DNA of 64,000 nt from Flaccisagitta enflata (lineage: Eukaryota), in contig OZ231126.1 of assembly GCA_965153355.1 (NCBI GenBank), positions 496,001-560,000 of the forward strand, read 5' to 3'. The notes below the pieces were generated by a model. It ran no database searches. It worked only from the letters and a program-made list of their open reading frames with translations, and was not told the origin of the DNA. Position numbers and translations under genes: made by a program. Shown piece by piece: positions 26,431-64,000 of this stretch (the first letter of the stretch is position 1; each line of letters opens with the position of its first letter).

Positions 26431-28216
26431 CTTTTTATGTATTCTAGCTCACTCAGCTCATTTAGCTCAGTCCTTTTTTTCTGATTTTTAATGGGATAAA
26501 TACATAAATGTTTTGATATGAGCAAGCAAAAACAAGAAAGTATGCCAGTGAGCATAGCTGATTGTCTGCTTGAGTGATTTTGAGAATTTTAGCTCATCTA
26601 TCTCATTTGGCTCAATCCTATTTTTCTCAGATTTTCAGTGCAACCAATACATACAAGTGCTCTTGATCTGATCTAACAGATAGAAAGATTTGCAGTGATT
26701 GAAAACAAAAGTTTGGTGAAAAGTGACCAATGCTTACGACTTTTTTCCTCGCGGTGACAGTCGCCATTACTGGTATTGGTGGTGACAGATGGAATTTGTC
26801 GGCCCATTGGCATCCGTTTTTGCAGGGTCAACTTACATCATATATATCATATATTATATCATACATTATATATTTTATTATATATTTTCATTGGCAGTAT
26901 CGGTAAAATGCATTCGTGGGTTAATCCGTTTTGAATATCATGAGTACACATTTCTTTTATCAATACATCATTCTCAATAATGCACAGTTACATTATATCA
27001 TCATTTTTTCTTAGATACAGTAAGCGCAGCTAGATTGCACCCGCTGATATAGCATTACCGCCTATAAGGCATACAATCTACAGTCCCATGGGAAATTTTG
27101 CAGTTATGTCTATAATGGCAATAAGGCAGTTTCACTACGTATAAGGCATAATTTTGATCAGTCCCTTGAAATGCGCTCTAGTGAAGCTCAACTGTACACC
27201 ATTTTTGTCATTTTATCCTCAAATTGATTGATTACCTTTCAAGTGGAATTACGTTACTGAGGATTCCCTTAAAAGCGGGAATCTACTGAACTGGTTTTAC
27301 AACAAAATTTTCCAAGAACAGAGCTGGTCTCTTTTGATCTGTCTAACCGGTTCCGACTAGAATTTTTGAGTGTTACATTTCAAGTTCTTAATCCAGCCTT
27401 AACAACTAACACAAAGTGTTGGCAGCGGACAGACGGAGAGACCAACAAACTGACATTCTAGATAGTTATAGGTAGCCTGAAGGAGTGAAACTTTTTTGTC
27501 TGTTTTGCATAGTAGGGATAGAGTATGACACAGCATGTAAATATCAGTCATCGGAGAAGATCTGATACTGTTTTAACTTATGTGTTTTGATATGAGATAA
27601 CGAGGTATGATGCATGATGTTGGCGAGGTTGAAAATGGCAATTCTTAAACGCTTCAAGACCCAATATGATTTTCTGCCAAAATAGGCCGACCTGTAACGA
27701 TTCTTGTAGCCGATCTCTAATGCAGGTTTGTATGAACAAGATGGTCCCTAATATAGGTTTGCATAAATTTGACGTGAAAGAAGAACTTAAGTGTAATTGC
27801 AATCAACTTATATTATGAACTAGCTCTTTTAATCGCAGATGATTGCAAGTTTTGCTCCCTCATCGCTATCTCATTGACGTACAAGTTTTGAAAACGAATT
27901 AAGAACCAAAATCGCTGTAATAATTGTTAACCATCTGTAATAATTGTTAACCATCTGTAATGCGTTGTAATCATCAGAATTTGATAACAGTACAGGGTAA
28001 ATTTGATGATAAGACTCTTGCAATTGAAATGTCATAAGACTGCAGTTTCGTGATTCAATCATCAGGCTGCAATTGCAGTTCAATCGGGTAGTGGTCACTA
28101 ACTCGATCTTTCTGTAAGAAGAAAAGCGTAAAGTGAAATGTTGATTATTGATCTGCAGTCTATTACCAATACGGGTGGATACACGACAACTTTAGACGGG
28201 TGGGTCGGAGTGGAAT

Positions 28217-28434
28217 AACAAGGCCAAATACACGGCTACCCAAGTCGCGTGCGGGTGGGCAGGGGCCGTATTTGAGGTCACTTGATTACTTGGGAAGGAG
28301 CAGTGAGGCAATAGACCGCAAAAAAAAAAATTAGAGTGTGACGGACGGACGGACGGACGGACAGACCGACAGACCGACGGACCGACGGACGGACTAACAA
28401 AGCGGGGTGTAGAGTCGCGTAGCACGCGACTAAG
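28217..28434 (-). mobile_element. HINE/DINE-1-like family B
   Basis: Full copy in the last intron of DNase copy A. Confidence 0.8.
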
Positions 28435-28989
28435 AACGCGAAAAGCGACTTTATGAGAGAATGGACAGATAGAGTCGCGTGTACATGACTTAAAAGGTAC
28501 GTAGGAATGAAAAATAAAGAAAAACATTTCTAAAGTTGTGGGAATAAGAGAAAGAAATGATTAGCAATGAATATGTTGAAAATTTACATGCTGACGAGTA
28601 CAGGTGTCATTCTAACGAGCACAGGTGTCAAATAAGATAATGTATGTCTGCCTCGTATATGTTCATTACTTCTTGTGTATGCACTATGCAGGTGGACTAT
28701 GTATGACTGTGCAAGTGTGGTCTTGACTTATCAAGTCGTCATCAAGATGAAAGAACTTTTGATAATCAAAGACTTTGACAGATTCTTTGATGATTCCGCC
28801 TTTCTCAAGTTGGCCTCGTTTGGAAATGATGAATCTGATTAAATTGTATTTTGTAAGTCATTTATCTATTTCAATTCTTCAATCCTTTCCAGAATGACTG
28901 TACGCGTACAGTATCCGCACTTTGAATTGTTTTGTGATGCATTACGAGGTATGATTCGGAAATCACCGGGCCAACTATCAGAAATATGC

Positions 28990-29370
28990 TTTTTAGTCGC
29001 GTGCTACGCGACTCTACACCCCGCTTTGTCGGTCCGTTGGTCCGTCCGTCGGTCACACTTTATTTTTTATGGGTTTGTGCGGTTTTTGGCCTCACTGCTC
29101 CAGCCCAAATGATCTTGTGACCTCAATATTGGCCCCTGCCCATCCACACGCGACTGGGGTAGCCGTGTATCCGGCCTTGTTAATAAAAAAAGTGTTTTAT
29201 TATCTTTAGTTGCGTGCTACACAACTCTACACCCCACTTTGTCGGTCTATTTGTCCATTGGTCCATCCATCACACTTTACTTTTTTTATTTTTGTAGTCT
29301 TTGGCCTCATCACTCCTGCCCAAATGAACAAGTGATATCAAATGCAGCCCCTGCCCACCCACATGTGACA
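28990..29370 (+). mobile_element. Two tandem HINE/DINE-1-like family B copies (second truncated)
   Basis: 28990-29181 and about 29206-29370. Confidence 0.75.
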
Positions 29371-29650
29371 TGTAACCGACCTTCCTACCTTCCTTCCTTC
29401 CTTCCTTCCTTCCTTCCTTCCTTCCTTCCTTCCTTCCTTCCTTCCTTCCTTTCTTCCTTCCTTCCTTCCCTTCTTCCTTCCCTCCTCCTTTCCTTTCTTC
29501 CTTCCTTCCTTCCTTCCTTCCTTCCTTCTTTCCTTCCTTCCTTTGTTCCTTCCTTCCTTCCTTCCTTCCTTCCTTCCTTCCTTCCTACGAACACGGCCTC
29601 TTATAGAGTCGCTTAGCCAGCGACTAAAAATGGAAGCATTTCTTACACTA

Positions 29651-30249
29651 ACAGGATGTGCACAAAATTTGGTATTTTTTTGGAAAAACATGTAAAAGCC
29701 ATCCTTTAAAGACACTTGTTCATCTAAGTCGAGGTCAAAAAGGTCATTTGATTATTTTTGAATGTTCATCAAAGGATTGGCAGCAAAGATTTGTAAAACA
29801 AGAGTGATGGAGGGCAGGAAAGGCTTTTTTGCAGTGGTCCCAAAAATATTTTCTGTAATGGATAAAGAAAAATTGATGATAGATTCAAGATTGTTGATGC
29901 AGGTTTTTTTAAATGCTTAGACCAATTTTTTAGACAATATGGTTGTCCTGTTTGATAAAAGTATATCAGTGTTCCTTTACACTTTAGCACTATTGGATGC
30001 CAGTCTTTATATTATTTTCAGCTACACAAAATCACTGTTCTTTGCCATATTTCTCCCAGTAAAAATCCCGTAAAATTGAAGAGTATACCTTCAGAAAAAC
30101 TACCTTTTTCGCAAACCAGGGAAGTTATGCACTTAAGCGATCAGTGGGCCTGATTGTGAGATTGTGTTTCAAATTTTTATCTTACTGGGCCATCTAGAAG
30201 TATGGTTTTAGTGATGATATGTAAATACCAAATTTTTTGCTCACCCTGT
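29651..30249. mobile_element. TIR MITE
   Basis: ACAGGATGTGCACAAAATTTGGTATTT ... AAATACCAAATTTTTTGCTCACCCTGT. Confidence 0.65.
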
Positions 30250-30267
30250 TATTAGACACGTGACTAA

Positions 30268-30563
30268 GGGGCCGTTTCTAGTCAGAGACAATCGCGTTTT
30301 TAACCGACCACTCGGTCGCTCGCTACATTTGTTTGATTGCACCACTCACTCTGCTCACTTGCTCCATAGCGCTCCGCTTTGCTACGCTCACTTTTTTACG
30401 CTCACTTTTCTAACCTCACTTCACTTGCTTGCTACATTCAGAGCTCGCTCACTCACTTCGCTAACTCCCTTAAGGAACAGTTGAAATTCTTGATCATGTG
30501 TTCACGCTGTAAACGCGTTCCACAGGAACAAACGCGTTTTTCATCTTCACTAGAAACACGCCC
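30268..30563. mobile_element. PIF/Harbinger (Tourist-like) MITE
   Basis: TAA TSD; GGGGCCGTTTC ... GAAACACGCCC. Other copies at 33039-33606 (interrupted), 36149-36328, 62930-63181 and 20310-20835 (decayed). Confidence 0.75.
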
Positions 30564-30611
30564 TAAGACGCGAAATGACCAATTGACCAGAAAAGAACTA
30601 GAAACCTAAAA

Positions 30612-30716
30612 TCAACAATAACCTGTTGTGGGGGATGTCAACAATAACCTGTTGTGGGGGATGTCAACAATAGCTTGTTGTGGGGGGTGTCAACAATAAC
30701 CTGTTGTGGGGGATGA
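30612..30716. repeat. 26-bp tandem repeat x4 containing a DNase exon end and its donor
   Basis: TCAACAATAACCTGTTGTGGGGGATG at 30612, 30638, 30664 and 30690. Confidence 0.9.
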
Positions 30717-31990
30717 AAACCGAACCACGAAAGGTTCCCATTGAAACGTGTCGGTACAAATTGGCCGATACTGTTGCCGATACTGTTGCTGTAGCTGCTG
30801 TAGTAACGGGGGCTGCTGCTGTAGTAACGACTGCTGTTGCTGCTGTTGTAGCTGCTGTGATAGCTTTTGTAGTTGCTGCCGTTTAACCATCGTCTCGTTC
30901 TCCATTTTCATCCTCGTGGCTTCTGATAATAGGAGAATCCAATGTTTGGTAAGGAAATTTCTTCCCCACAGTATGATATAGGTTTGAATCTTCTTCTTTT
31001 TCTCCTTCTTCTTTTTCTTCTTCTTCTTTTTCTTCTTCTTCTTCTTGTTCTTGTTCTTAATCTTGCTCTTGTTCTTGTTCTTCTTCTTCTTCTTCTTCTT
31101 CACCAATTCCATCTTCCTTTCACAAGTTTTTGTAGCTCTGTTCATCTCTTTCCCTAGAAAGACGGGAGGAAGAAGGGAGGGGATGAAGGAAGGAAAGTAG
31201 GAAGGAAGAAAGGAAGAAAACAAGGAAGGAAGGAAGGAAGGAAGGAAGGAAGGAAGGAAGAAGGAAAGGAAGGAGGGAAGGAAGGAAGGAAAAAAGAATC
31301 AAAGGAATGGGAACAAGTGACGCGGGGTCACAATATCGCTGCAAACGGGTGGGCAGGGGCATCCCACCCCCATCCACACCCCAACTCACCTGCAACACTC
31401 AAACATACAGAAACGCTCGTTTTCTCATGACCAACGGACGGACGGATCAACGGACGGATGGACAAAGCCTCTTATAGAGTTGCGTGTCCGCAAATAAAAA
31501 ATAAAGAAGGGAGGAAAGAAGCCTAGAAAGGAGAAAGGAAGGAAGGAAGTGAGAAAGGAAGAGAGGAAGTGATATAAAACAACTACCACTGTATCATTTC
31601 CCTGAAAATATTTTGAAAAACTTGTGTACTGAGTGTACTGAGGAAAACAAAAAACAATTGCAGGAGCTTCACAAAAAGAAAGAAAAAAAAACTTTTTTTT
31701 TCATTTTCTAGCCTCTCTTCCTCTTTATTTTCCTTCCTTCCTTCCCTTCTTCCTTCCTTCCTTCCTTCCTTCCTTCCTTCCTTCCTTCCCGTCTCTATAT
31801 CTCTTTCTTTCTTTCTTCCTTCCTTCCTTTCTTCCTTCCTTCCTTCCCTTCTTCCTTCCCTCCTCCTTTCCTTCCTTCCTTCCTTCCTTCCTTCCTTCCT
31901 TCTTTCCTTCCTTCCTTTGTTCCTTCCTTCCTTCCTTCCTTCCTTCCTTCCTTCCTTCCTTCCTTCCTTCCTACGAACACGGCCTCTTAT

Positions 31991-32599
31991 GTCGAGGTGC
32001 AAACGAAGACCAAATTAGAAGAGTCAAAACATTTTTTTCAATATTTTGAATTTTACTAATTTTAACTTTTTTCATCAAAGAATATAATTGTTATGTTATA
32101 TTGTTTTCAGTTTTGCATAGAAAATCATTTGTAGATAAAAAAAAGAGTGCTGAGCAAGTGAAAAGGGGAGAAAAAAGAAGGAAATCTAAAGAAAATTTAA
32201 TTTTGCAATTTGACTTGTCTTAAGGAAAATTCTAAGACTCTCTTTAAATGCAGAATTTTGCATTTTCAAAAACATGGCCTCATTTTAAAAACATATAAGA
32301 TAAGGGCCATGTTCTTAGAAATGCAAAATTGTTCAATTTGTTCAAGTCTTAGAATTTTCCCTTCGCAGGTTTTAAATTTTTGCACTACTATATCTAAGCA
32401 ATCTATTATTTCCAATAATTCTTTCTTGTCTTTGCTAATAAATCAAAGCAATGGCTTTATCATGCTAGGGTATCTTTTACTAATAGAATATTATTAAGTT
32501 ACAAAATTATAAATTCCATTTAAAAAATCACAAAATAATAATGAATATACTTATGAGAAGAGACTGAAACCGAAATTTTATCTTCATTTGCACCTCGAC
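31991..32599. mobile_element. TIR element with 4-bp TTAT TSD
   Basis: TTAT|GTCGAGGTGCAAACGAAGA ... TCTTCATTTGCACCTCGAC|TTAT; empty site GGCCTC-TTAT-AGAGTCGC at about 29595-29612. Confidence 0.85.
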
Positions 32600-33607
32600 T
32601 TATAGAGTCGCTTAGCCAGCGACTAAAAATGGAAGCATTTCTTACACTAACAGGATGTGCACAAAATTTGGTATTTTTTTGGAAAAACATGTAAAAGCCT
32701 CTTTATTTTCCTTCCTTCCTTCCCTTCTTCCTTCCTTCCTTCCTTCCTTCCTTCCTTCCTTCCTTCCTTCCCGTCTCTATATCTCTTTCTTTCTTTCTTC
32801 CTTCCTTCCTTCCTTCCTTCCTTCCTTCCCTCCTTCTTTTCCTCTTTTCCTCTTTTATTCTTCTTCCTCTTTTTTCCTTTTTCTCTTCCTCCCCCTTTTC
32901 TTCCTACCAGTCTAGCTAGCTTCCTACGAGCGCCGCTCGCGTGCTCGGGCACTTTGTGACACCCCGCGTATCAGTTCCAAATCTCAAAACATTACGACCA
33001 CTAAAACATGAGTTATAACCATTTGAATACCCGTGTTAGGGGCCGTTTCTAGCTAGAGACAATCGCATTTTAAATGGGCTACTTGGTCGCTCGCTATATT
33101 CGTTCACTCGCACCGCTCACTGCGCTCACTCGCTCCACAGTGTACCCCGTAATCTGGGGTTGCTCGCGGTTGCTCGCGGTTGCTCGGAATTGCTCGGGGT
33201 TGAATCCCAAGTAAACCCCAAGTAAATCCCGAGTTAACCCCAAACAACCCAAGCTCGGGGTTTGCTTGGGGTTTGCTTGGGGTTTGCTTGGGGTTGCTCA
33301 GGGTTGCATTGTTAGAAACAATGTCTAAACTATAAAAAGAAAATAACCTCAACCCCGAGCAACCCCGAGCAACCCCGTGCAACCCCGAGCAGAACCCAAA
33401 CCATTCCAAGCAACCTCGGGGTTTAATCTCACAGTTTTACGTTGCAGAATACCTGGTGCAGCGCTCCGCTTCGCTCCGCTCGCTTCGCTCGCATGCTCCG
33501 TTCACAGGCTAGCTCACTCACTTCGCTCACTCCCTCGTTGGACAGTTGAAAACTTGAAATTCATGAATATGTGTTCACACTGTAAACACGTTCAAGGGGT
33601 ACAAACG

Positions 33608-33701
<94 letters not shown>

Positions 33702-33748
33702 CGTTGTTGTCGTTGTTGTCGTTGTTGTCGTTGTTATTGTTACTGTCG

Positions 33749-33849
<101 letters not shown>

Positions 33850-34157
33850 GCTGTGACATGGCGCTTGTGCGCTCGGAAGGGAATGTTTTGTCTCAGATGA
33901 TGGTGTTATTCTCCCCATATCTCTCCTCACTTATAACTCCTAAGAGTTTGTCTAGGATATGATTTTTATCGTACCTGTAGATAAATCCATATTGTTCTTT
34001 TGATACGGTTCTCCCGAGGCGGTCGCTAAGGATAAGTTCGTATTCATCTGCTTCCTCGCACTTTTAAAGAGTCGTAAATGGTTTATTTTTACAAGATTCA
34101 AATTAGATATCATTCATATATGGGTCTACGTCCATCCGTCTGAGTATTTAACTCTGT

Positions 34158-34213
<56 letters not shown>

Positions 34214-34362
34214 TTCTTTCTTTGACCTGATCATTAAGATCTTGGAGCAGAACTTTTATCCATTTTTGACTTTTGTCACGAATTTCTTGAATCAGAATTA
34301 GATCATAACGAAGAAGAATCTGTAAGGGGATGTTTATATGTATAACATACTGTTAATGTTAC

Positions 34363-34450
<88 letters not shown>

Positions 34451-34625
34451 GCTTATCACTTTGTATATCATACTGATATCTTTAACACCGACAACAACCA
34501 ACGAACTAATTTCATATCTTACCTTGACAAAAACATTCACAACATCATTTAAATGATTCATGTTGCTGTATTTTACCATGACTAATGAATACAATAACAT
34601 CACCGTGTGGCTTCATGTTACCCTA

Positions 34626-35250
34626 CAGTGAGGCGCATAAATAAGTAGCTACTTTTGTAAAGACTATTTTGCTTATTCTAGAAATGATAGGATAGATTTA
34701 TTGGTGATGATATTAAAGGATTTTAAATTTTCTTTAATTTGAGACCAATCCCAAATTTGTGGCTCTTTTTGTTTAGAAGTGACGTTTGTTTGAATAGAAG
34801 CATATCAAAACCATGTTGGGAAAAAGGGACAAAAAATTAGCTCCTTTTTGACAATCAGAAAACTGAGTTGTTTTCTTTAAGCTGATGTCATATGAAAACG
34901 AATCAAGCCACAAATTTCTGATTGGACTAGATTTGTAGAGTTGTCGAAGCTCTTTAAAATACTCATGGATTTGAATTCTTTATTATGATTTGTTTTTGAT
35001 CTATCAATGCAAAACTAAGTCCCTTTTGTGTTTTGCCCGTAGTTGTTCAGTGATAGATTCTTCTGAATTACTTCTACTCTTTGAACTTGTATAAATTCCT
35101 AGCAAATCAAGATATAAGTCTGGGATTGGGCTAGATTTATAGAACTTTCGAGGATCTTTAAAAATCTCACAGATTTTAAGTGTTTTTAAGTGCCAGAACT
35201 GACAAAATTAGCTTTTGAAGGTACTGGCTACTTATTCATGCGCCTCACTG
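34626..35250. mobile_element. Tc1/mariner-type MITE
   Basis: TA|CAGTGAGGCGCATAAATAAGTAGC ... GCTACTTATTCATGCGCCTCACTG|TA. Confidence 0.85.
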
Positions 35251-35670
35251 TACTTATGCATCAGCAATATCATGTTTCTCCGTCTTAACTTAGCTTTTAA
35301 CTAACACATCCATTACATCATTTTGCTGTATTTTACCTTTACTAACACATCCACATCCTTGACTAACACATCCATGAGTAACACATCCTTGACTGACACA
35401 TCCACAACATCATTTTGCTGTATTATTCCTTCACTACCTAACACATCCACATCCTTGACTAACACATCCACAACAACAACTTGTTCTATTTTACCTTCAC
35501 TAATACATCCACAACATCTTCTTGCATCATTTTGCTCTTGGCAAGTCTTGCCAAGGACTCTGATGTTAAAAGCGGCGAATTTCAGAGGAGAATTCCTTTT
35601 GTTGCTTCTCCCCAAATCAGAGCTTATGTCAGCGTCAGACTCATCTTCGTAGCTTAGAAATTAGGCGAAA

Positions 35671-36136: not shown

Positions 36137-36799
36137 ATGGTGTGAATCAGGGCGTGTTTCCAATGACTGCCAAAAACGCGTTTCTTCCCACGAGGGAGTG
36201 AGCCAAGTAAGTGGACGAGTGGGGCGAAGCGGAGTGCTGTGGAGCGAATGAGCAGAGTGAGCGGTGCGAGTGAACGAACATAGCGAGCGACCGAGTGGCC
36301 GTGATTGTCTGTGACTGGTAACGACCCCTTTGTCGTTTTTTTTTTTCTAGCGGGGAGGGGAGGGGAGGGGCGGCCTTGTGATAGTCTCATCAATCGTCAG
36401 AAGTATGAAGTCATTCCATGAGATAAACCAGGAATTGATGATAGCATAATGCAGTTATTGTGCGCAATTGTGATTAAATGAAAATGACAATTTCTTACTT
36501 GCTGCTGCGAGGCTGTCCTATCACCGCTGCCGACGCGATGGATGCAAAAACTAACACAAACAACCGATTAAAGATGGTTTCAATCTTCATTTCCAAAGAA
36601 TTGTATTTGTTGTGTCACTTCTGATCTTTTGTTTCAAAAATTGCGTTGAAACTTTTGGAGATATGTATAGCTTTAAAGTAGGACCGAGTTATTGTTGTTA
36701 TTACTTTGTGGGACCCTGCAGTACTACTAATTGAGAAAAAAAATACATGTGATGCTGAGATATGACATGGCACAAATTGGTGCCGCTGTACGGACAGTA

Positions 36800-56905: not shown

Positions 56906-57226
56906 GCCGAGGGAAAGAGGTAGTAGGGGCCACAAAGGGGACTAGGGGGCCCCGCGGTAGTAGTCAAGTCTAGGGCCCCGCGGAGGGTAAGTACGGCTCA
57001 GCCGCCCGGTCTCTTCTCATATGCCTCAAAGCATCTCATTTCATTCAAGTTATAATTCACGCATGCACGCGACTGAAAACGAACCAATTGTAAATATTCA
57101 TGAAAAACAATTCTTTTATTACACTCACACAAAGTGTAAATCAAAGAGCCGGAGCGGCTAGAAGACGACTAAAACAATTACAAGTGAAACAATAATCTTA
57201 ACGAGAGCGCCAGGATGACAACAGAT

Positions 57227-57283
57227 TCAGTTTTCAGGTTGTAGTTGGACTTCAATGGGATAATGGTCGCTGACCCGCAAAGT
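57227..57283 (-). CDS. DNASE1: DNase I-like protein (copy B), last exon with catalytic SDHYP
   Basis: ttcattgcag|TLRVSDHYPIEVQLQPEN*; AATAAA on - at 57115-57120. Confidence 0.9.
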   Translation of the reverse strand, partial: TLRVSDHYPIEVQLQPEN

Positions 57284-58029
57284 CTGCAATGAAAAAACAA
57301 AAAGGTTTGTAGCCAATTTAGTACACGTAAAACTGTCATTAGGTTGGCAGAAAGCGTCATTAAACGATAGTCACTGTATAAAGGAATAACTATCGCACCT
57401 ATTTATTGGGCCTAATGTCCTTGACCTGAAGTCGACCGTTTACCCCAAATATTTCATTTTCAGGGCCGGACAAAATGTGTTTGTATTCATCTCTTCTAGC
57501 CTATTCCCTGTTCCCTAGGTCAAAATTAGTGCAAAAATACCACCAATGAAAAACCGGTATTGATTAACCCAGATAAAAGAAATTGGACGACCTGCGCGCT
57601 TGGAGACGAATCACTTAAAGGGTAGTGAAGAGCTCATTTGCATAATGCTGTTTTATATTGCTCTAGTCGTGCCACAGTTTCAATATCTATAGCGAAAGAT
57701 TTTTAGTCGCGGACTCGCGACTCAAGACTTTGCTGTGTCGGTCGGTCGGGCGGTCGGCCCGTCCGTTGGTCCGTCCCCGTTTTTTCGCTATTCCGCTCCT
57801 ACCCATCTGTCAAAGACTGAGGGGGAGTGTTTACGGCCTTGATTACTCTATGGGGAATCTTTTTTATTTCAGAAATCATTAGTTTAGGTTCGCAATATCA
57901 GTCCTATATGTCAATTTGTCTCTCTGATATGAATCCCCGTATTTCCAAGTCTGGACATCTACTGTATGGCTCTTGGCGCATAGAGAACGCAAATGGTTGA
58001 GTGAAGGGTATATGGAATGACTTACATAC

Positions 58030-61000
58030 TCAACCTGAATATTTCGATGCAACTTACCAAACCTGAATGTTACTATGCAACTGATATACATTGTTGCAAC
58101 ATACCAAATCTGAATGCTACTATGCAACTGAGATACATTGTTGCAACATACCAAACCTGAATGTTACTATGCAACTGATATTCACTATTGCAAGTTACCA
58201 AACCTGAATGTTACTATGCAACTGATATTCTCCATTGCAACATACCAAATCTGAATGTTACTATGCAACTGATATACATTGTTGCAACATACCAAATCTG
58301 AATGTTACTATGCAACTGATATACATTGTTGCAACATACCAAATCTGAATGTTACTATGCAACTGATATTCACCATTGCAAGTTACCAAACCTGATACAA
58401 CTGATATACATTGTTGCAAGTTACCAAACCTGAATGTTACTATGCAACTGATATACATTGTTGCAACATACCAAACCTGAATGTTACTATGCAACTGATA
58501 TTCACCATTGCAAGTTACCAAACCTGATACAACTGATATACATCGTTGCAACATACCAAATCTGAATGTTACTATGCAACTGATATACATTGTTGCAACT
58601 TACCAAATCTGAATGTTACTATGCAACTGATATACATCGTTGCAACATACCAAACCTGAATGTTACTATGCAACTGATATTCACCATTGCAAGTTACCAA
58701 ACCTGATACAACTGATATATATTGTTGCAAGTTACCAAATCTGAATGTTACTACACAACTGATATACATCGTTGCAACTTACCAAATCTGAATGTTACTA
58801 TGCAACTGATATACATCGTTGCAACATACCAAACCTGAATGTTACTATGCAACTGATATACATCGTTGCAACATACCGAACCTGAATGTTACTATGCAAC
58901 TGATATACATCGTTGCAAGTTACCAAACCTGAATGTTACTATGCAACTGATATACATCGTTGCAACATACCAAACCTGAATGTTACTATGCAACTGATAT
59001 ACATTGTTGCAACATACCAAATCTGAATGTTACTATGCAACTGATATTCACCATTGCAAGTTACCAAACCTGATACAACTGATATACATTGTTGCAAGTT
59101 ACCAAACCTGAATGTTACTATGCAACTGATATACATTGTTGCAACATACCAAACCTGAATGTTACTATGCAACTGATATTCACCATTGCAAGTTACCAAA
59201 CCTGAATGTTACTATGCAACTGATATACATCGTTGCAACATACCAAATCTGAATGTTACTATGCAACTGATATACATTGTTGCAACTTACCAAATCTGAA
59301 TGTTACTATGCAACTGATATACATCGTTGCAACATACCAAACCTGAATGTTACTATGCAACTGATATTCACCATTGCAAGTTACCAAACCTGATACAACT
59401 GATATATATTGTTGCAAGTTACCAAATCTGAATGTTACTACACAACTGATATACATCGTTGCAACTTACCAAATCTGAATGTTACTATGCAACTGATATA
59501 CATCGTTGCAACATACCAAACCTGAATGTTACTATGCAACTGATATACATCGTTGCAACATACCGAACCTGAATGTTACTATGCAACTGATATACATCGT
59601 TGCAAGTTACCAAACCTGAATGTTACTATGCAACTGATATACATCGTTGCAACATACCAAACCTGAATGTTACTATGCAACTGATATTCACCATTGCAAG
59701 TTACCAAATCTGAATGTTACTACACAACTGATATACATCGTTGCAACATACCAAACCTGAATGTTACTATGCAACTGATATACATTGTTGCAACATACCA
59801 AATCTGAATGTTACTATGCAACTGATATTCACCATTGCAACTTACCAAATCTGAATGTTACTATGCAACTGATATACATCGTTGCAACATACTAAACCTG
59901 AATGTTACTATACAACTGATATTCACCATTGCAAGTTACCAAACCTGAATGTTACTATGCAACTGATATACATCGTTGCAACTTACCAAACCTGAATGTT
60001 ACTATGCAACTGATATTCACCATTGCAAGTTACCAAACCTGAATGTTACTATGCAACTGATATTCACCATTGCAAGTTACCAAACCTGAATGTTACTATG
60101 CAACTGATATACATTGTTGCAACATACCAAACCTGAATGTTACTATGCAAATGATATTCACCATTGCATGTTACCAAATCTGAATGTTACTATGCAACTG
60201 ATATTTACCATTGCAAGTTACCAAACCTGAATGTTACTATGCAACTGATATTCACCATTGCAACTTACCAAATCTGAATGTTACTATGCAACTGAGATAC
60301 ATTGTTGCAACATACCAAACCTGAATGTTACTATGCAACTGATATACATTGTTGCAACATACCAAACCTGAATGTTACTATGCAACTGATATACATTGTT
60401 GCAACATACCAAACCTGAATGTTACTATGCAACTAATATACATCGTTGCAACATACTAAACCTGAATGTTACTATACAACTGATATTCACCATTGCAAGT
60501 TACCAAACCTGAATGTTACTATGCAACTGATATACATCGTTGCAACTTACCAAACCTGAATGTTACTATGCAACTGATATACACCGTTGCAAGTTACCAA
60601 ATCTGAATGTTACTGTGCAACTGATATTCACCATTGCAAGTTACCAAATCTGAATGTTACTATGCAACTGATATTCACCATTGCAAGTTACCAAATCTGA
60701 ATGTTACTATACAACTGATATACATTGTTGCAACTTACCAAATCTGAATGTTACTATGCAACTGATATACATTGTTGCAACATACCAAATCTGAATGTTG
60801 CTATGCAACTGATATACATTGTTGCAACATACCAAATCTGAATGTTACTATGCAACTGATATACACAGTTGCAAGTTACCAAATCTGAATGTTACTATAC
60901 AACTGATATTCACCATTGCAAGTTACCAAATCTGAATGTTACGATACAACTGATATACATTGTTGCAACTTACCAAATCTGAATGTTACTATACAACTGA

Positions 61001-62198
61001 TATACATTGTTGCAACTTACCAAATCTGAATGTTACTATGCAACTGATATACATTGTTGCAACATACCAAATCTGAATGTTACTATGCAACTGATATACA
61101 TTGTTGCAACATACCAAATCTGAATGTTACTATGCAACTGATATTCACCATTGCAAGTTACCAAACCTAAATGTTACTATACAACTGATATTCACCATCA
61201 CAAGTTACCAAACCTGATTGTTACTATGCAACTGATAAACATCGTTGCAACTTACCAAACCTGAATGTTACTATACAACTGATAAACATTGTTGCAACAT
61301 ACCAAATCTGAATGTTACTATGCAACTGATATTCACCATTGCAAGTTACCAAACCTAAATGTTACTATACAACTGATATTCACCATTGCAAGTTACCAAA
61401 CCTAAATGTTACTATGCAACTGATATTCACCATTGCAAGTTACCAAACCTAAATGTTACTATACAACTGATATTCCCCATCGCAAGTTACCAAACCTGAA
61501 TGTTACTATACAACTGATATACATCGTTGCAACTTACCAAACCTGAATGTTACTATACAACTGATATTCACCATTGCAAGTTACCAGACCTGAATGTTAC
61601 TATGCAACTGAGATACATCATTGCAACTTACCAAACCTGAATGTTACTATACAACTGATATACATCGTTGCAACTTACCAAACCTGAATGTTACTATGCA
61701 ACTGAGATACATCGTTGCAACTTACCAGACCTGAATGTTACTATGCAACTGATATACATCGTTGCAAGTTACCAAATCTGAATGTTACTATGCAACTGAT
61801 ATACATTGTTGCAACATACCAAATCTGAATGTTACTATACAACTGATATTCACCATTGCAAGTTACCAAACCTGAATATTACTATACAACTGATATACAT
61901 CGTTGCAACATACCAAATCTGAATGGTACTATGCAACTGATATTCACCATTGCAAGTTACCAAATCTGAATGTTACTATGCAACTGATATTCACCATTGC
62001 AAGTTACCAAATCTGAATGTTACTATGCAACTGAGATACATTGTTGCAACATACCAAATCTGAATGTTACTATGCAACTGATATTCACCATTGCAAGTTA
62101 CCAAACCTGAATGTTACTATGCAACTGAGATACCTTGTTGCAACATACCAAACCTGAATGTTACTATGCAACTGATATACATTGTTGCAACTTACCAA
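58030..62198. repeat. 47-bp intronic satellite, about 90 copies (with 38-bp variants)
   Basis: Unit AACCTGAATGTTACTATGCAACTGATATACATTGTTGCAACATACCA; starts exactly at the DNase B donor. Confidence 0.97.
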
Positions 62199-62298
62199 TT
62201 CGTCGTCAAGACCAAAGAAGTTCTGGAAATCGAAGACTTGAGCTGATTCTTTGATTATTCCGCCATTTTCAAATCGACCGCGTTTGGAAATGATGAAT
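62196..62298 (-). CDS. DNASE1: DNase I-like protein (copy B), penultimate exon
   Basis: atatcag|A FIISKRGRFENGGIIKESAQVFDFQNFFGLDDEL|gtaagt; same 103-nt length as the paralogous exon 28732-28834. Confidence 0.88.
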
Positions 62299-62302
62299 CT
62301 GA

Positions 62303-62618
62303 TATAATAGGGTGGTCACAAAATAGGGTCAAATTTCAAAAAATGATATACTCTAGTATTTTGCATAAATGTACAAAAAAGAAGGTTTTTCCACAAGTAG
62401 AGGTCTGAATTTGAAGAATAAACCATGGCGGCAAATATATAGGCTTCCTATGGCAATAAAAAGATCTCCATAGCAACCCTATAGTTTTGCCGACAAGGTT
62501 TCTTGTTTGATTTCACACCCCAGCTTGTGAGAAATCCTTCTTTTATTGGACAATTGTGCAAAAGGCTCAAGTATATCAATGTATAAAATTTAACCCAATT
62601 CCGGACCACCCTATTATA
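62303..62618. mobile_element. TA-type TIR MITE abutting a splice acceptor
   Basis: TATAATAGGGTGGTC ... GACCACCCTATTATA. Confidence 0.75.
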
Positions 62619-62929
62619 TAATGAGTTGTTGATTAGTTGATTCATCATTCGAACAATTCATCCCCCCCCCCACTCCTGTAGCCCCCCCCCCCCCATGTGC
62701 GCGACCCACATGGTAATCTCACACGTGGTTTAAATCTAATGCATCTATTAGTCTATTGGACTAATAGTCTATAAGTCTATCAGTCTATTAGTTTATTAGT
62801 CTCGCCATATTGTCTATCTGACTCAATGCATAAACACGTCTGTCCGTCCGCGAATAAGGTAGCCAGGTATTCGGCCGTGTTTAAGAGACGGAAATAAATC
62901 GCTTAAAATATCTAATGGAATAGTTCTTA

Positions 62930-63181
62930 GGGGGCGTTTCCAGTCAGAGATAATCGCGTTTTGAATGGGCCACTCGGTCACTCGCTATGTTCGTTCGCTC
63001 GCACCGGTCACTCCGCTCACTCGCTCCGCAGCGCTCAGCTTCACTACGCTCCGTTCACGGGCTCGCTCACTCACTTCGCTCACTCCCTTGTGGGACAGTT
63101 GAAATTCATGAATATGTGTTCACGCTGCAAAAGCGTTCAATGGGAACAAAGGCGTTATTCATCTTCACTAGAAACACGCCC
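62930..63181. mobile_element. PIF/Harbinger-type MITE inserted in a splice donor
   Basis: TTA TSD at 62927-62929 and 63182-63184. Confidence 0.8.
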
Positions 63182-63185
63182 TTAC

Positions 63186-63254
63186 CTGTCATAAGCGCAG
63201 TTACTTCTGCCTGTTGTTGTGTCAGCGTTATCAGGAATCAGCCAGTTCCAATAC
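63186..63254 (-). CDS. DNASE1: DNase I-like protein (copy B), exon WLIPD..CAYDR
   Basis: cgattag|G YWNWLIPDNADTTTGRSNCAYD AG|gtaag; compare DNase I FQWLIPDSADTTATSTNCAYDR. Confidence 0.93.
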
Positions 63255-63453
63255 CTAATCGAAATGAGATATTGCATCGTTACTAAACTGTTTCAATACC
63301 TAATTGAAATAAGATATTGCATCGTTACTAAATTGTTTTATGCTTGGCTTTTCAAACATTTTCCAATTGTGAAGAAGCCCAAGGGATTTACAAATTTTCT
63401 TTGCCCATGAGCACATCAATTTGTAACTTTCGATATTTAGTATTTAAATATAC

Positions 63454-63523
63454 CTTTCATTACGAAGTCTGATATCAGGCCAATACTTTTTCGGCATATA
63501 AGCACCGTCCGCGTTCAAGTCAC
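63454..63523 (-). CDS. DNASE1: DNase I-like protein (copy B), exon GDLNAD (gene continues beyond the window)
   Basis: ctcttag|GT DLNADGAYMPKKYWPDIRLRNE AG|gtatat; compare GDFNADCSYVTSSQWSSIRLR. Confidence 0.92.
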
Positions 63524-63659
63524 CTAAGAGTTCAAATAATTGGTCACCGGAAAATTTAGTATCCACAAGGCACCATCACCAATCACCAATCACCAATCAC
63601 AAAACACCAATCACCACCAACAATCACATTCGTCATTTTCAGATTTTTTTACCACCTCA

Positions 63660-63749
63660 CCATTATCATCATCATCATCATCACCATCATCATCATCACC
63701 AATGATGATGAAGATGATGATAATGATGATGATGATGATGGTGATTCAC

Positions 63750-63792
<43 letters not shown>

Positions 63793-63837
63793 TTCATCAT
63801 CATCATCATCATCATTATCATCATTATTATCATCATT

Positions 63838-63931
<94 letters not shown>

Positions 63932-63951
63932 CCATCATCTTTTTCATAATT

Positions 63952-63996
<45 letters not shown>

Positions 63997-64000
63997 TTCA
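63660..64000. repeat. (ATC)n microsatellite
   Basis: Directly visible. Confidence 0.95.

What the first reader, a model, noticed from the sequence alone, without database searches (positions are those of the whole stretch)
58030..62198. 4.2-kb satellite built from a 5' splice site, each unit shaped like a mini-intron
Seen on the sense (-) strand: the unit is GTAAGT(or GTATGT/GTAACT)TGCAACAATGTATATCAGTTGCATAGTAACATTCAG plus GTTTG or ATTTG. That is a 42-nt GT..TAAC..TTCAG segment and a 5-nt spacer, starting exactly at the true TTG|GTAAGT donor. Many units contain CAG|GT, the ratchet-point motif of recursive splicing. The array makes up about 85% of the intron, and the homologous intron in copy A (28112-28731) lacks it. 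Inference: about 90 U1 decoys, possibly with stepwise splicing or micro-exon noise.
Basis: partly seen in the sequence, partly recalled or inferred. Interest (0 to 1): 0.72.

Follow-up and report, generated by a model that had tools for sequence, protein, structure and literature searches.

The report
Intron minisatellite that repeats the splice donor
A 4.2-kb tandem repeat fills most of the last intron of a DNase I-like gene and copies its splice donor about 90 times, yet the transcripts on hand use only the first donor, as in a handful of human genes.

Summary
A 47-nt tandem array (58044-62198, 89.4 copies) fills 84.5% of a 4,912-nt intron. Its first unit starts at the first intron base (62195) and shares the exon's last three bases, TTG.

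The host is the 3' part of a minus-strand DNase I-family gene. A public intron-less transcript product (P0001) joins exon end 62196 to acceptor 57283. It aligns without a gap to solved DNase I across that junction. RNA contigs from two metatranscriptome studies cover the exon and stop at 62196. None holds array sequence.

This architecture is already described. PMC1557585 lists human F7 IVS7, 6-16, CBS, LMNB2 and PDGFA as minisatellites whose first monomer spans an exon-intron border. In F7, LMNB2 and PDGF only the most upstream donor is used.

My reading is a locus-grown minisatellite with silent pseudo-donors. The U1-decoy and stepwise-splicing ideas have no support, but rare isoforms could not be tested. 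The ratchet-point reading fails the published Drosophila criteria.

It is a new, unusually large member of a known kind.

The parts
58044..62198 (-). 47-nt minisatellite, about 89-90 units. The first monomer is the last 3 exon bases plus the first 44 intron bases.
   Evidence: TRF row; unit list; unit statistics
62196..62298 (-). Penultimate coding exon of DNase I-like gene copy B. It ends with the residues ...GLDDEL.
   Evidence: RNA contigs of X7 and X11 lie on 62196/62238-62298 and join 62298 to 63186. tblastn of P0001.
62190..62198 (-). Authentic 5' splice site TTG|GTAAGT, cut between 62196 and 62195.
   Evidence: X7 contigs stop fitting at 62196 although the laid stretch ran on to 62100. 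P0001 junction.
57284..62195 (-). Last intron, 4,912 nt, of which the array is 84.5%.
57227..57283 (-). Coding part of the last exon (18 residues with the SDHYP motif, then the stop). It is preceded by an acceptor with 82% pyrimidines.
   Evidence: tblastn of P0001 residues 394-411, 100% identity at 57283-57230; acceptor
57115..57120 (-). AATAAA, a possible poly(A) signal of the last exon. This is inference only.
   Evidence: Read from the sequence; not tested
63186..63255 (-). Preceding exon (residues ...WLIPDNADTTTGRSNCAYD).
   Evidence: RNA contig pieces; tblastn
63450..63530 (-). Exon before that (residues ...GDLNADGAYMPKKYW...). The 3' border is ambiguous by 4-5 letters, and the 5' border lies at about 63525-63530.
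   Evidence: RNA contig pieces at 63450-63525; tblastn; DNase gamma hit at E 0.0013
58529..59722 (-). Internal multi-unit duplication at a shift of 687 nt: 59722-59216 against 59035-58529.
   Evidence: 98.6% identity over 507 nt and 100% over a 300-nt window
28112..28731 (-). Homologous intron of copy A, without the array. Its first bases read ATAAGT.

Best explanation
This is a locus-grown intronic minisatellite whose first monomer spans the exon-intron border of the last intron of a DNase I-family gene. A 47-nt segment, made of the exon's last three bases plus the first 44 intron bases and so including the 5' splice site, was amplified in place to about 90 copies. The likely route is replication slippage and unequal exchange (inferred). 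The authentic donor is therefore followed by 89 pseudo-donors. The transcripts on hand use only the most upstream donor and remove the whole array as one 4.9-kb intron (shown at contig level). By analogy with human F7 IVS7, the pseudo-sites are probably usable but lose to the first site, through 5'->3' or first-come selection next to the defined exon (inferred). Any leak would give a truncated product without the SDHYP motif. The array itself most likely has no function.
For: Array and its phase.

Host gene: P0001 (411 aa, from a single 1,395-nt contig, so intron-less) matches Pfam PF03372 at E 3.6e-13 and solved DNase I at E 1.1e-66.

Junction: P0001 residues 357-394 map to 62306-62193, and residues 394-411 map to 57283-57230 at 100% identity. 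The alignment to DNase I runs across this junction without a gap.

RNA contigs: X7 records 14 and 15 join 63186 to 62298. They stop fitting exactly at 62196, with 24 further letters that do not lie on the next 96 bases of the array, which were included in the laid stretch. RNA depth in bin 62100-62151 is 0 in both X7 and X11, against 24.2 and 11.2 in the exon bin. The values for bin 62152-62203 (3.72 and 1.85) equal the exon depth times 8/52 by my arithmetic, as expected if coverage ends at 62196.

Growth in place: the array is a mosaic of unit types. A 687-nt-shift duplication is 98.6-100% identical. Identity between units falls with distance, from 0.867 at a shift of 47 to 0.78 at 141. There is no unit elsewhere in the window. 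In DNA run X2 the summed depth of array words is 990-2,780 against about 24-69 in single-copy bins, which roughly fits one array of this size. A neighbouring dispersed repeat reaches 5e5.

No conservation of donor strength: positions +4 and +5 are among the most variable of the unit (A 60% / T, G 61% / C), and 37 of 90 units have C at +5.

No productive alternative: 0 of 89 pseudo-donors keeps the frame into the SDHYP motif.

Precedent: PMC1557585, abstract, introduction and discussion read.
Against: The RNA evidence is contigs and one predicted protein. These show the dominant form only, at low depth (about 24 and 12), and Logan contigs drop rare variants. The only raw-read RNA run of the organism (X13) gave 0 reads on the stretch, so it is no test. 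The 24 letters that follow 62196 in the X7 contigs were not printed, so the acceptor rests on P0001 alone. P0001 differs from the window by one residue in this exon, so it comes from another allele or individual whose array state is unknown. No whole genome is held, so other loci carrying the repeat cannot be excluded. The depth argument is rough by the tool's own caveat. The introns of copies A and B are not alignable beyond GTAAGT-like bases, so the single-copy ancestor of the unit is not shown. Three identical interior units fold better than shuffles (z -3.7), so an RNA structure role is not excluded.
Confidence: 0.8

Rival explanations
1. The array is a functional U1 snRNP platform or decoy. 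Dozens of bound U1 particles would tune removal of the last intron, block premature or unspliced 3'-end formation, or set expression by array length.
For: 53 of 90 units carry GTAAGT or GTATGT with G at +5. Sixteen units copy the authentic -3..+8 12-mer. There is no AATAAA or ATTAAA in the array. In F7 the pseudo-sites were shown to be functional donors (PMC1557585).
Against: There is no measurement of U1 binding or of any effect. Positions +4 and +5 vary freely, and 37 of 90 units have C at +5. Copy A has no array. The human analogues are described as polymorphic minisatellites without such a role.
Confidence: 0.08
2. The intron is removed stepwise, by recursive or intra-array splicing. Units would act as 42-nt mini-introns, or CAG|GT as ratchet points, perhaps leaving 5-nt micro-exons.
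For: 48 units carry CAG|GT, and each unit has GT...TAAC...CAG.
Against: The unit's CAG has 47% pyrimidines at -20..-4, against 65-82% at the three acceptors scored. It has A at -6, where 196 of 197 Drosophila ratchet points have TT at -5/-6. The regenerated site would read GTTTGG. Known recursive introns are 11,341 bp or longer and their segments 2,596 bp or longer. P0001 has no 5-nt or 47-nt insertion at the junction. No RNA contig holds array sequence.
Confidence: 0.04
3. The repeat is a dispersed satellite, or the internal array of a mobile element, that landed here. The gene's donor is then supplied by the repeat rather than copied from the gene.
For: The window is full of tandem arrays (179 TRF rows) and of high-copy elements. 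The introns of copies A and B share no alignable sequence that would show the seed.
Against: There is no other copy in 64 kb. Array word depth in X2 is only about 30-80 times single copy. The array begins exactly at +1 and shares TTG with the exon. No terminal repeats or target duplication are visible at its ends. One exact-pattern scan of metagenome contigs found 0 matches, which is weak evidence.
Confidence: 0.06
4. The array is an assembly artefact.
For: Long tandem arrays are prone to mis-assembly. The 100% identical 687-nt-shift duplication could be one.
Against: A DNA contig of a second sample of the same organism (X2, record 7) crosses the exon/array border (62184-62309) with 0 differences. 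Array words are there at 30-80 times single-copy depth.
Confidence: 0.02

Closest known systems
Human F7 intron 7 minisatellite (37 bp x 5-9). Borensztajn et al. 2006, PMC1557585; abstract, introduction and discussion read.
   Same: The first monomer is the last bases of the exon (4 there, 3 here) plus the start of the intron. The authentic donor is followed by identical pseudo-sites, and only the most upstream one is used.
   Different: There are about 90 units here against 5-9. Units are 47 nt and diversified: only 16 pseudo-sites are identical in -3..+8, and 37 are weakened at +5. The host is not a vertebrate gene. Nothing has been tested by mutation here.
Human LMNB2 intronic repeat (100 bp x 10-15). 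de Stanchina et al. 1997, seen only as a citation, and its title in the reference list, in PMC1557585.
   Same: [quoted passage not shown] Only the authentic donor is used.
   Different: Unit size and copy number differ. I could not read the paper itself.
Human 6-16 (interferon-inducible) minisatellite. Turri et al. 1995, seen only as cited in PMC1557585; the paper is not held.
   Same: The donor is reiterated many times (25 pseudo-sites).
   Different: There the two nearest pseudo-sites are used constitutively, and CBS IVS13 behaves likewise. Here no such isoform is seen, and use of units 2 or 3 would break the frame.
Drosophila ratchet points / recursive splicing. Duff et al. preprint 10.1101/006163; passages read.
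   Same: An AG|GT dinucleotide pair lies inside an intron.
   Different: There is no pyrimidine tract and no TT at -5/-6. The regenerated donor is weak, and the intron and steps are far too short.

Membership tests
Minisatellite whose first monomer spans an exon-intron border (F7 / LMNB2 / 6-16 / CBS / PDGFA type) | Head-to-tail array of units of tens of bases inside an intron | tested here: met
   Period 47, 89.4 copies, 88% matches
Minisatellite whose first monomer spans an exon-intron border (F7 / LMNB2 / 6-16 / CBS / PDGFA type) | The first monomer contains the last exon bases and the authentic 5' splice site | tested here: met
   The array runs to 62198 and the exon ends at 62196. TTG|GTAAGT equals the unit junction.
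Minisatellite whose first monomer spans an exon-intron border (F7 / LMNB2 / 6-16 / CBS / PDGFA type) | The donor sequence is reiterated in the following units | tested here: met
   17 of 90 units carry TTG|GTAAGTTG, including the authentic one. 35 carry GTATGT and 37 carry GTAAC[T/A].
Minisatellite whose first monomer spans an exon-intron border (F7 / LMNB2 / 6-16 / CBS / PDGFA type) | mRNA uses the most upstream donor, alone or mainly | tested here: met
   P0001 junction 62196->57283. RNA contigs stop at 62196 and hold no array. Only dominant forms are visible.
Minisatellite whose first monomer spans an exon-intron border (F7 / LMNB2 / 6-16 / CBS / PDGFA type) | Copy number varies between individuals (VNTR) | not testable with these tools
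Recursive splice site (ratchet point) | Juxtaposed strong 3' splice site (prominent pyrimidine tract, TT at -5/-6) and strong 5' splice site | tested here: not met
   Pyrimidines 47% against 65-82% at real acceptors. T at -5, A at -6. The following site reads GTTTGG.
Recursive splice site (ratchet point) | Long intron removed in kilobase-sized steps, with saw-tooth read density | tested here: not met
   The intron is 4,912 nt and the steps 47 nt, against at least 11,341 bp and at least 2,596 bp. Saw-tooth density was not testable.
DNase I family (Pfam PF03372, Exo_endo_phos), for the host gene | Full-length match to the domain and to solved DNase I, including the C-terminal SDHYP motif | tested here: met
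   P0001: PF03372 at E 3.6e-13, profile matched to position 225 of 225. DNase I 9fju_E at E 1.1e-66. Four exons map to the window.
Dispersed satellite or transposon-borne array | The same unit at many loci, or flanked by element ends | tested here: inconclusive
   None elsewhere in the window. Modest depth in X2. No genome is held.

The most novel reading that the evidence does not exclude
With about 90 reiterated donors, 53 of them with G at +5, this would be the largest natural 5' splice-site reiteration described. It might be kept as a U1-loading platform in the last intron. Such a platform could make splicing or 3'-end formation of this secreted-nuclease gene depend on array length, or stop unspliced transcripts from being polyadenylated. 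Even if neutral, it is a natural 90-site test of the 'most upstream site wins' rule outside vertebrates.
Probability: 0.07. Interest if true: 0.6.

Novelty: new member of a known kind. Interest (0 to 1): 0.3.

Why it matters
Minisatellites that reiterate a splice donor are rare natural experiments on how the spliceosome picks one 5' splice site among identical ones. The known cases are human and have 5-26 repeats. This one has about 90, in a marine organism's DNase I-like gene. The transcripts on hand still use only the first site, which fits the oriented-selection model. Beyond that it is an ordinary product of a genome very rich in tandem repeats.

Tried and rejected
Whole-genome search: no genome is held for this window.

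Pfam on single exon translations: 0 relevant families for 7 pieces. PDB search with the 39-aa exon piece: 0 hits. The gene family was settled with P0001 instead.

Raw polyA RNA run X13: 0 reads laid from about 6% of the run, so it is no test.

The search for related loci: the 34-aa exon query was too short. P0001 against metagenome contigs gave 195 pattern matches, none confirmed. An exact 29-nt array pattern gave 0 matches in metagenome contigs.

Rfam on 57000-62400: 0 matches at gathering score.

RNA folding: the exon plus the first three units folds no better than shuffles (z -0.90). Three interior units give z -3.7. That is expected for repeats with the GTTGCAAC palindrome, and I did not take it as evidence that donors are masked.

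Aligning the start of copy A's intron to the unit gave only scattered matches, so the ancestral seed is not shown.

Papers: the Turri 1995 paper is not held. Supplements were not consulted.

Full report
**1. Observation**

Tandem Repeats Finder reports one array at 58044-62198. It has period 47, 89.4 copies, 88% matches and score 5923. On the minus strand I find 90 unit starts: 84 units of 47 nt, 5 of 38 nt that share one 9-nt deletion, and a degenerate last unit.

- Unit starts read GTAACT (36), GTATGT (35), GTAAGT (18) and GTAACA (1).
- Unit ends read GTTTG (46), ATTTG (37) and other (6), of 89.
- The first unit begins at 62195, the base after the exon's last base 62196. The exon's last three bases, TTG, equal the unit's end.
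- The intron is 4,912 nt and the array is 84.5% of it.
- No unit copy lies elsewhere in the 64-kb window.
- The homologous intron of copy A (28731-28112) lacks the array.

Only 53 of 90 units have G at +5.

**2. The host gene**

Open frames on the minus strand carry DNase I hallmarks. The exon at 63447-63575 hits DNase gamma at E 0.0013.

A word search with the 40-aa frame ending at 62196 found two longer proteins. P0001 has 411 aa, comes from a single 1,395-nt contig and is 95% identical. P0002 has 358 aa and is 78% identical. P0001 matches Pfam PF03372 at E 3.6e-13 and solved DNase I at E 1.1e-66.

tblastn maps P0001 to four exons of copy B:

| P0001 residues | Window coordinates |
|---|---|
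| 311-337 | 63530-63450 |
| 336-359 | 63256-63185 |
| 357-394 | 62306-62193 |
| 394-411 | 57283-57230 (100% identity) |

The rest of copy B lies beyond the window's end.

A 1,395-nt contig with an uninterrupted 411-codon frame cannot be genomic here, because these four exons alone span 6.3 kb. P0001 is therefore a transcript product.

**3. Which donor is used**

P0001 reads straight from the residues encoded up to 62196 into those encoded from 57283. Its alignment to DNase I crosses this point without a gap and ends in the SDHYP motif.

I laid four runs on 62100-63640. This stretch holds the exons and only the first two array units, because the tool turns long repeats away.

- In metatranscriptome run X7, two 211-nt contigs join 63186 to 62298. 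They stop fitting exactly at 62196, with 24 more letters that do not lie on the next 96 array bases.
- In run X11, from a different study, a 775-nt contig joins three exons.
- RNA depth is 24.2 and 11.2 in the exon bin and 0 in both runs in bin 62100-62151. The border-bin values equal the exon depth times 8/52 by my arithmetic, so coverage ends at 62196.
- The raw polyA run of the organism (X13) gave 0 reads and is no test.

Only the canonical junction is seen. The limit is that contigs at depth 12-24 show dominant forms only. The 24 letters after 62196 were not printed.

**4. What pseudo-donor use would do**

I spliced each of the 89 pseudo-donors to 57283 in silico. None keeps the frame into SDHYP. 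Eighty-eight meet a stop before or at the junction. One, unit 3, reads the last exon out of frame.

**5. How the array arose**

The evidence points to growth in place.

- Units form a mosaic of two main types, AAC(A/G)ATGTA and AATGGTGAA.
- Identity falls with distance, from 0.867 at a shift of 47 to 0.78 at 141.
- A multi-unit block is duplicated at a shift of 687 nt, with 98.6% identity over 507 nt and 100% over a 300-nt window. The block carries the 38-nt variants with it.
- In DNA run X2, a second sample of the same organism, a contig crosses the exon/array border with 0 differences.
- In X2, array words have summed depth 990-2,780, against about 24-69 in single-copy bins and about 5e5 in a neighbouring dispersed repeat. 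That roughly fits a single array, but the tool warns that such depths are not copy numbers.

These are marks of slippage and unequal exchange. The single-copy seed is not shown, because the two paralogous introns no longer align.

**6.

Ratchet points in Drosophila are juxtaposed strong 3' and 5' splice sites with a prominent pyrimidine tract. They have TT at -5/-6 in 196 of 197 cases. Their introns are at least 11,341 bp and their segments at least 2,596 bp (preprint 10.1101/006163, passages read).

The unit's CAG does not fit. It has 47% pyrimidines at -20..-4, against 65-82% at the three acceptors scored. It has A at -6. The GT that follows it reads GTTTGG. P0001 shows no 5-nt or 47-nt insertion at the junction.

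The U1-decoy idea is untested. Donor positions +4 and +5 are among the most variable in the unit, which speaks against selection for donor strength.

Folding gives z -0.90 for the exon plus three units, and z -3.7 for three interior units. I draw nothing from these values.

**7. What is known**

| Human gene | Unit and copies | Donor use |
|---|---|---|
| F7 IVS7 | 37 bp x 5-9; 4 exon bases + 33 intron bases | only the first donor; pseudo-sites functional but not competing |
| LMNB2 | 100 bp x 10-15 | only the authentic donor |
| PDGF | 81 bp x 16-18 | only the authentic donor |
| 6-16 | 25 pseudo-sites | the two nearest pseudo-sites are also used |
| CBS IVS13 | 15-20 repeats | two pseudo-sites are also used |

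[quoted passage not shown] The present array meets the structural features and the donor-use feature of this class. It is larger than any case listed there, and it is not vertebrate.

My two further searches found no non-vertebrate case. They were not exhaustive.

It was likewise judged ordinary. I did not test that note.

**8. Verdict**

The feature is real and correctly described. It is an unusually large new member of a known kind. The most likely mechanism is a neutral expansion in place, with silent pseudo-donors and selection of the most upstream site (confidence 0.8). The decoy and stepwise-splicing readings are unsupported, but low-level use is not excluded.

Noticed in passing
window 62310-62623: A 314-nt foldback element with inverted ends (arms 62302-62336 / 62585-62619 and two inner pairs). 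It ends 11 nt upstream of the acceptor AG of the preceding intron. A DNA contig of run X2 joins 62309 to 62624 and so lacks it, which makes it an insertion polymorphism next to a 3' splice site. Summed word depth is about 5e5, so the family is very high-copy.
   Followed up: partly
window 62932-63191: A second very high-copy repeat in the same intron (depth up to 3e6 in X2). Related pieces lie at 30264-30564, 33036-33140, 33467-33605 and 36186-36329.
   Followed up: no
window 28058-35648 (minus strand): Copy A of the DNase I-like gene looks decayed. tblastn with P0001 and P0002 finds exons for P0001 residues 25-132, 248-269 and 359-411. It finds nothing for residues 270-358, the catalytic core, between 30699 and 28839. 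The donor of its last intron reads ATAAGT instead of GT.
   Followed up: partly
window 1-64000: The window is extremely rich in tandem repeats: 179 TRF rows in 64 kb, with many arrays of period 17-120. An intronic minisatellite is therefore unremarkable for this genome.
   Followed up: no
P0001 residues about 150-247: The DNase I-like protein carries a roughly 100-residue low-complexity insert, rich in Q, A, D and K, between the two halves of the nuclease domain. P0002 and solved DNase I lack it.
   Followed up: no
window 63657-64000: A (TCA)n microsatellite of at least 344 nt runs off the window's end, upstream of the exon at about 63450-63530 and probably inside the intron before it.
   Followed up: no
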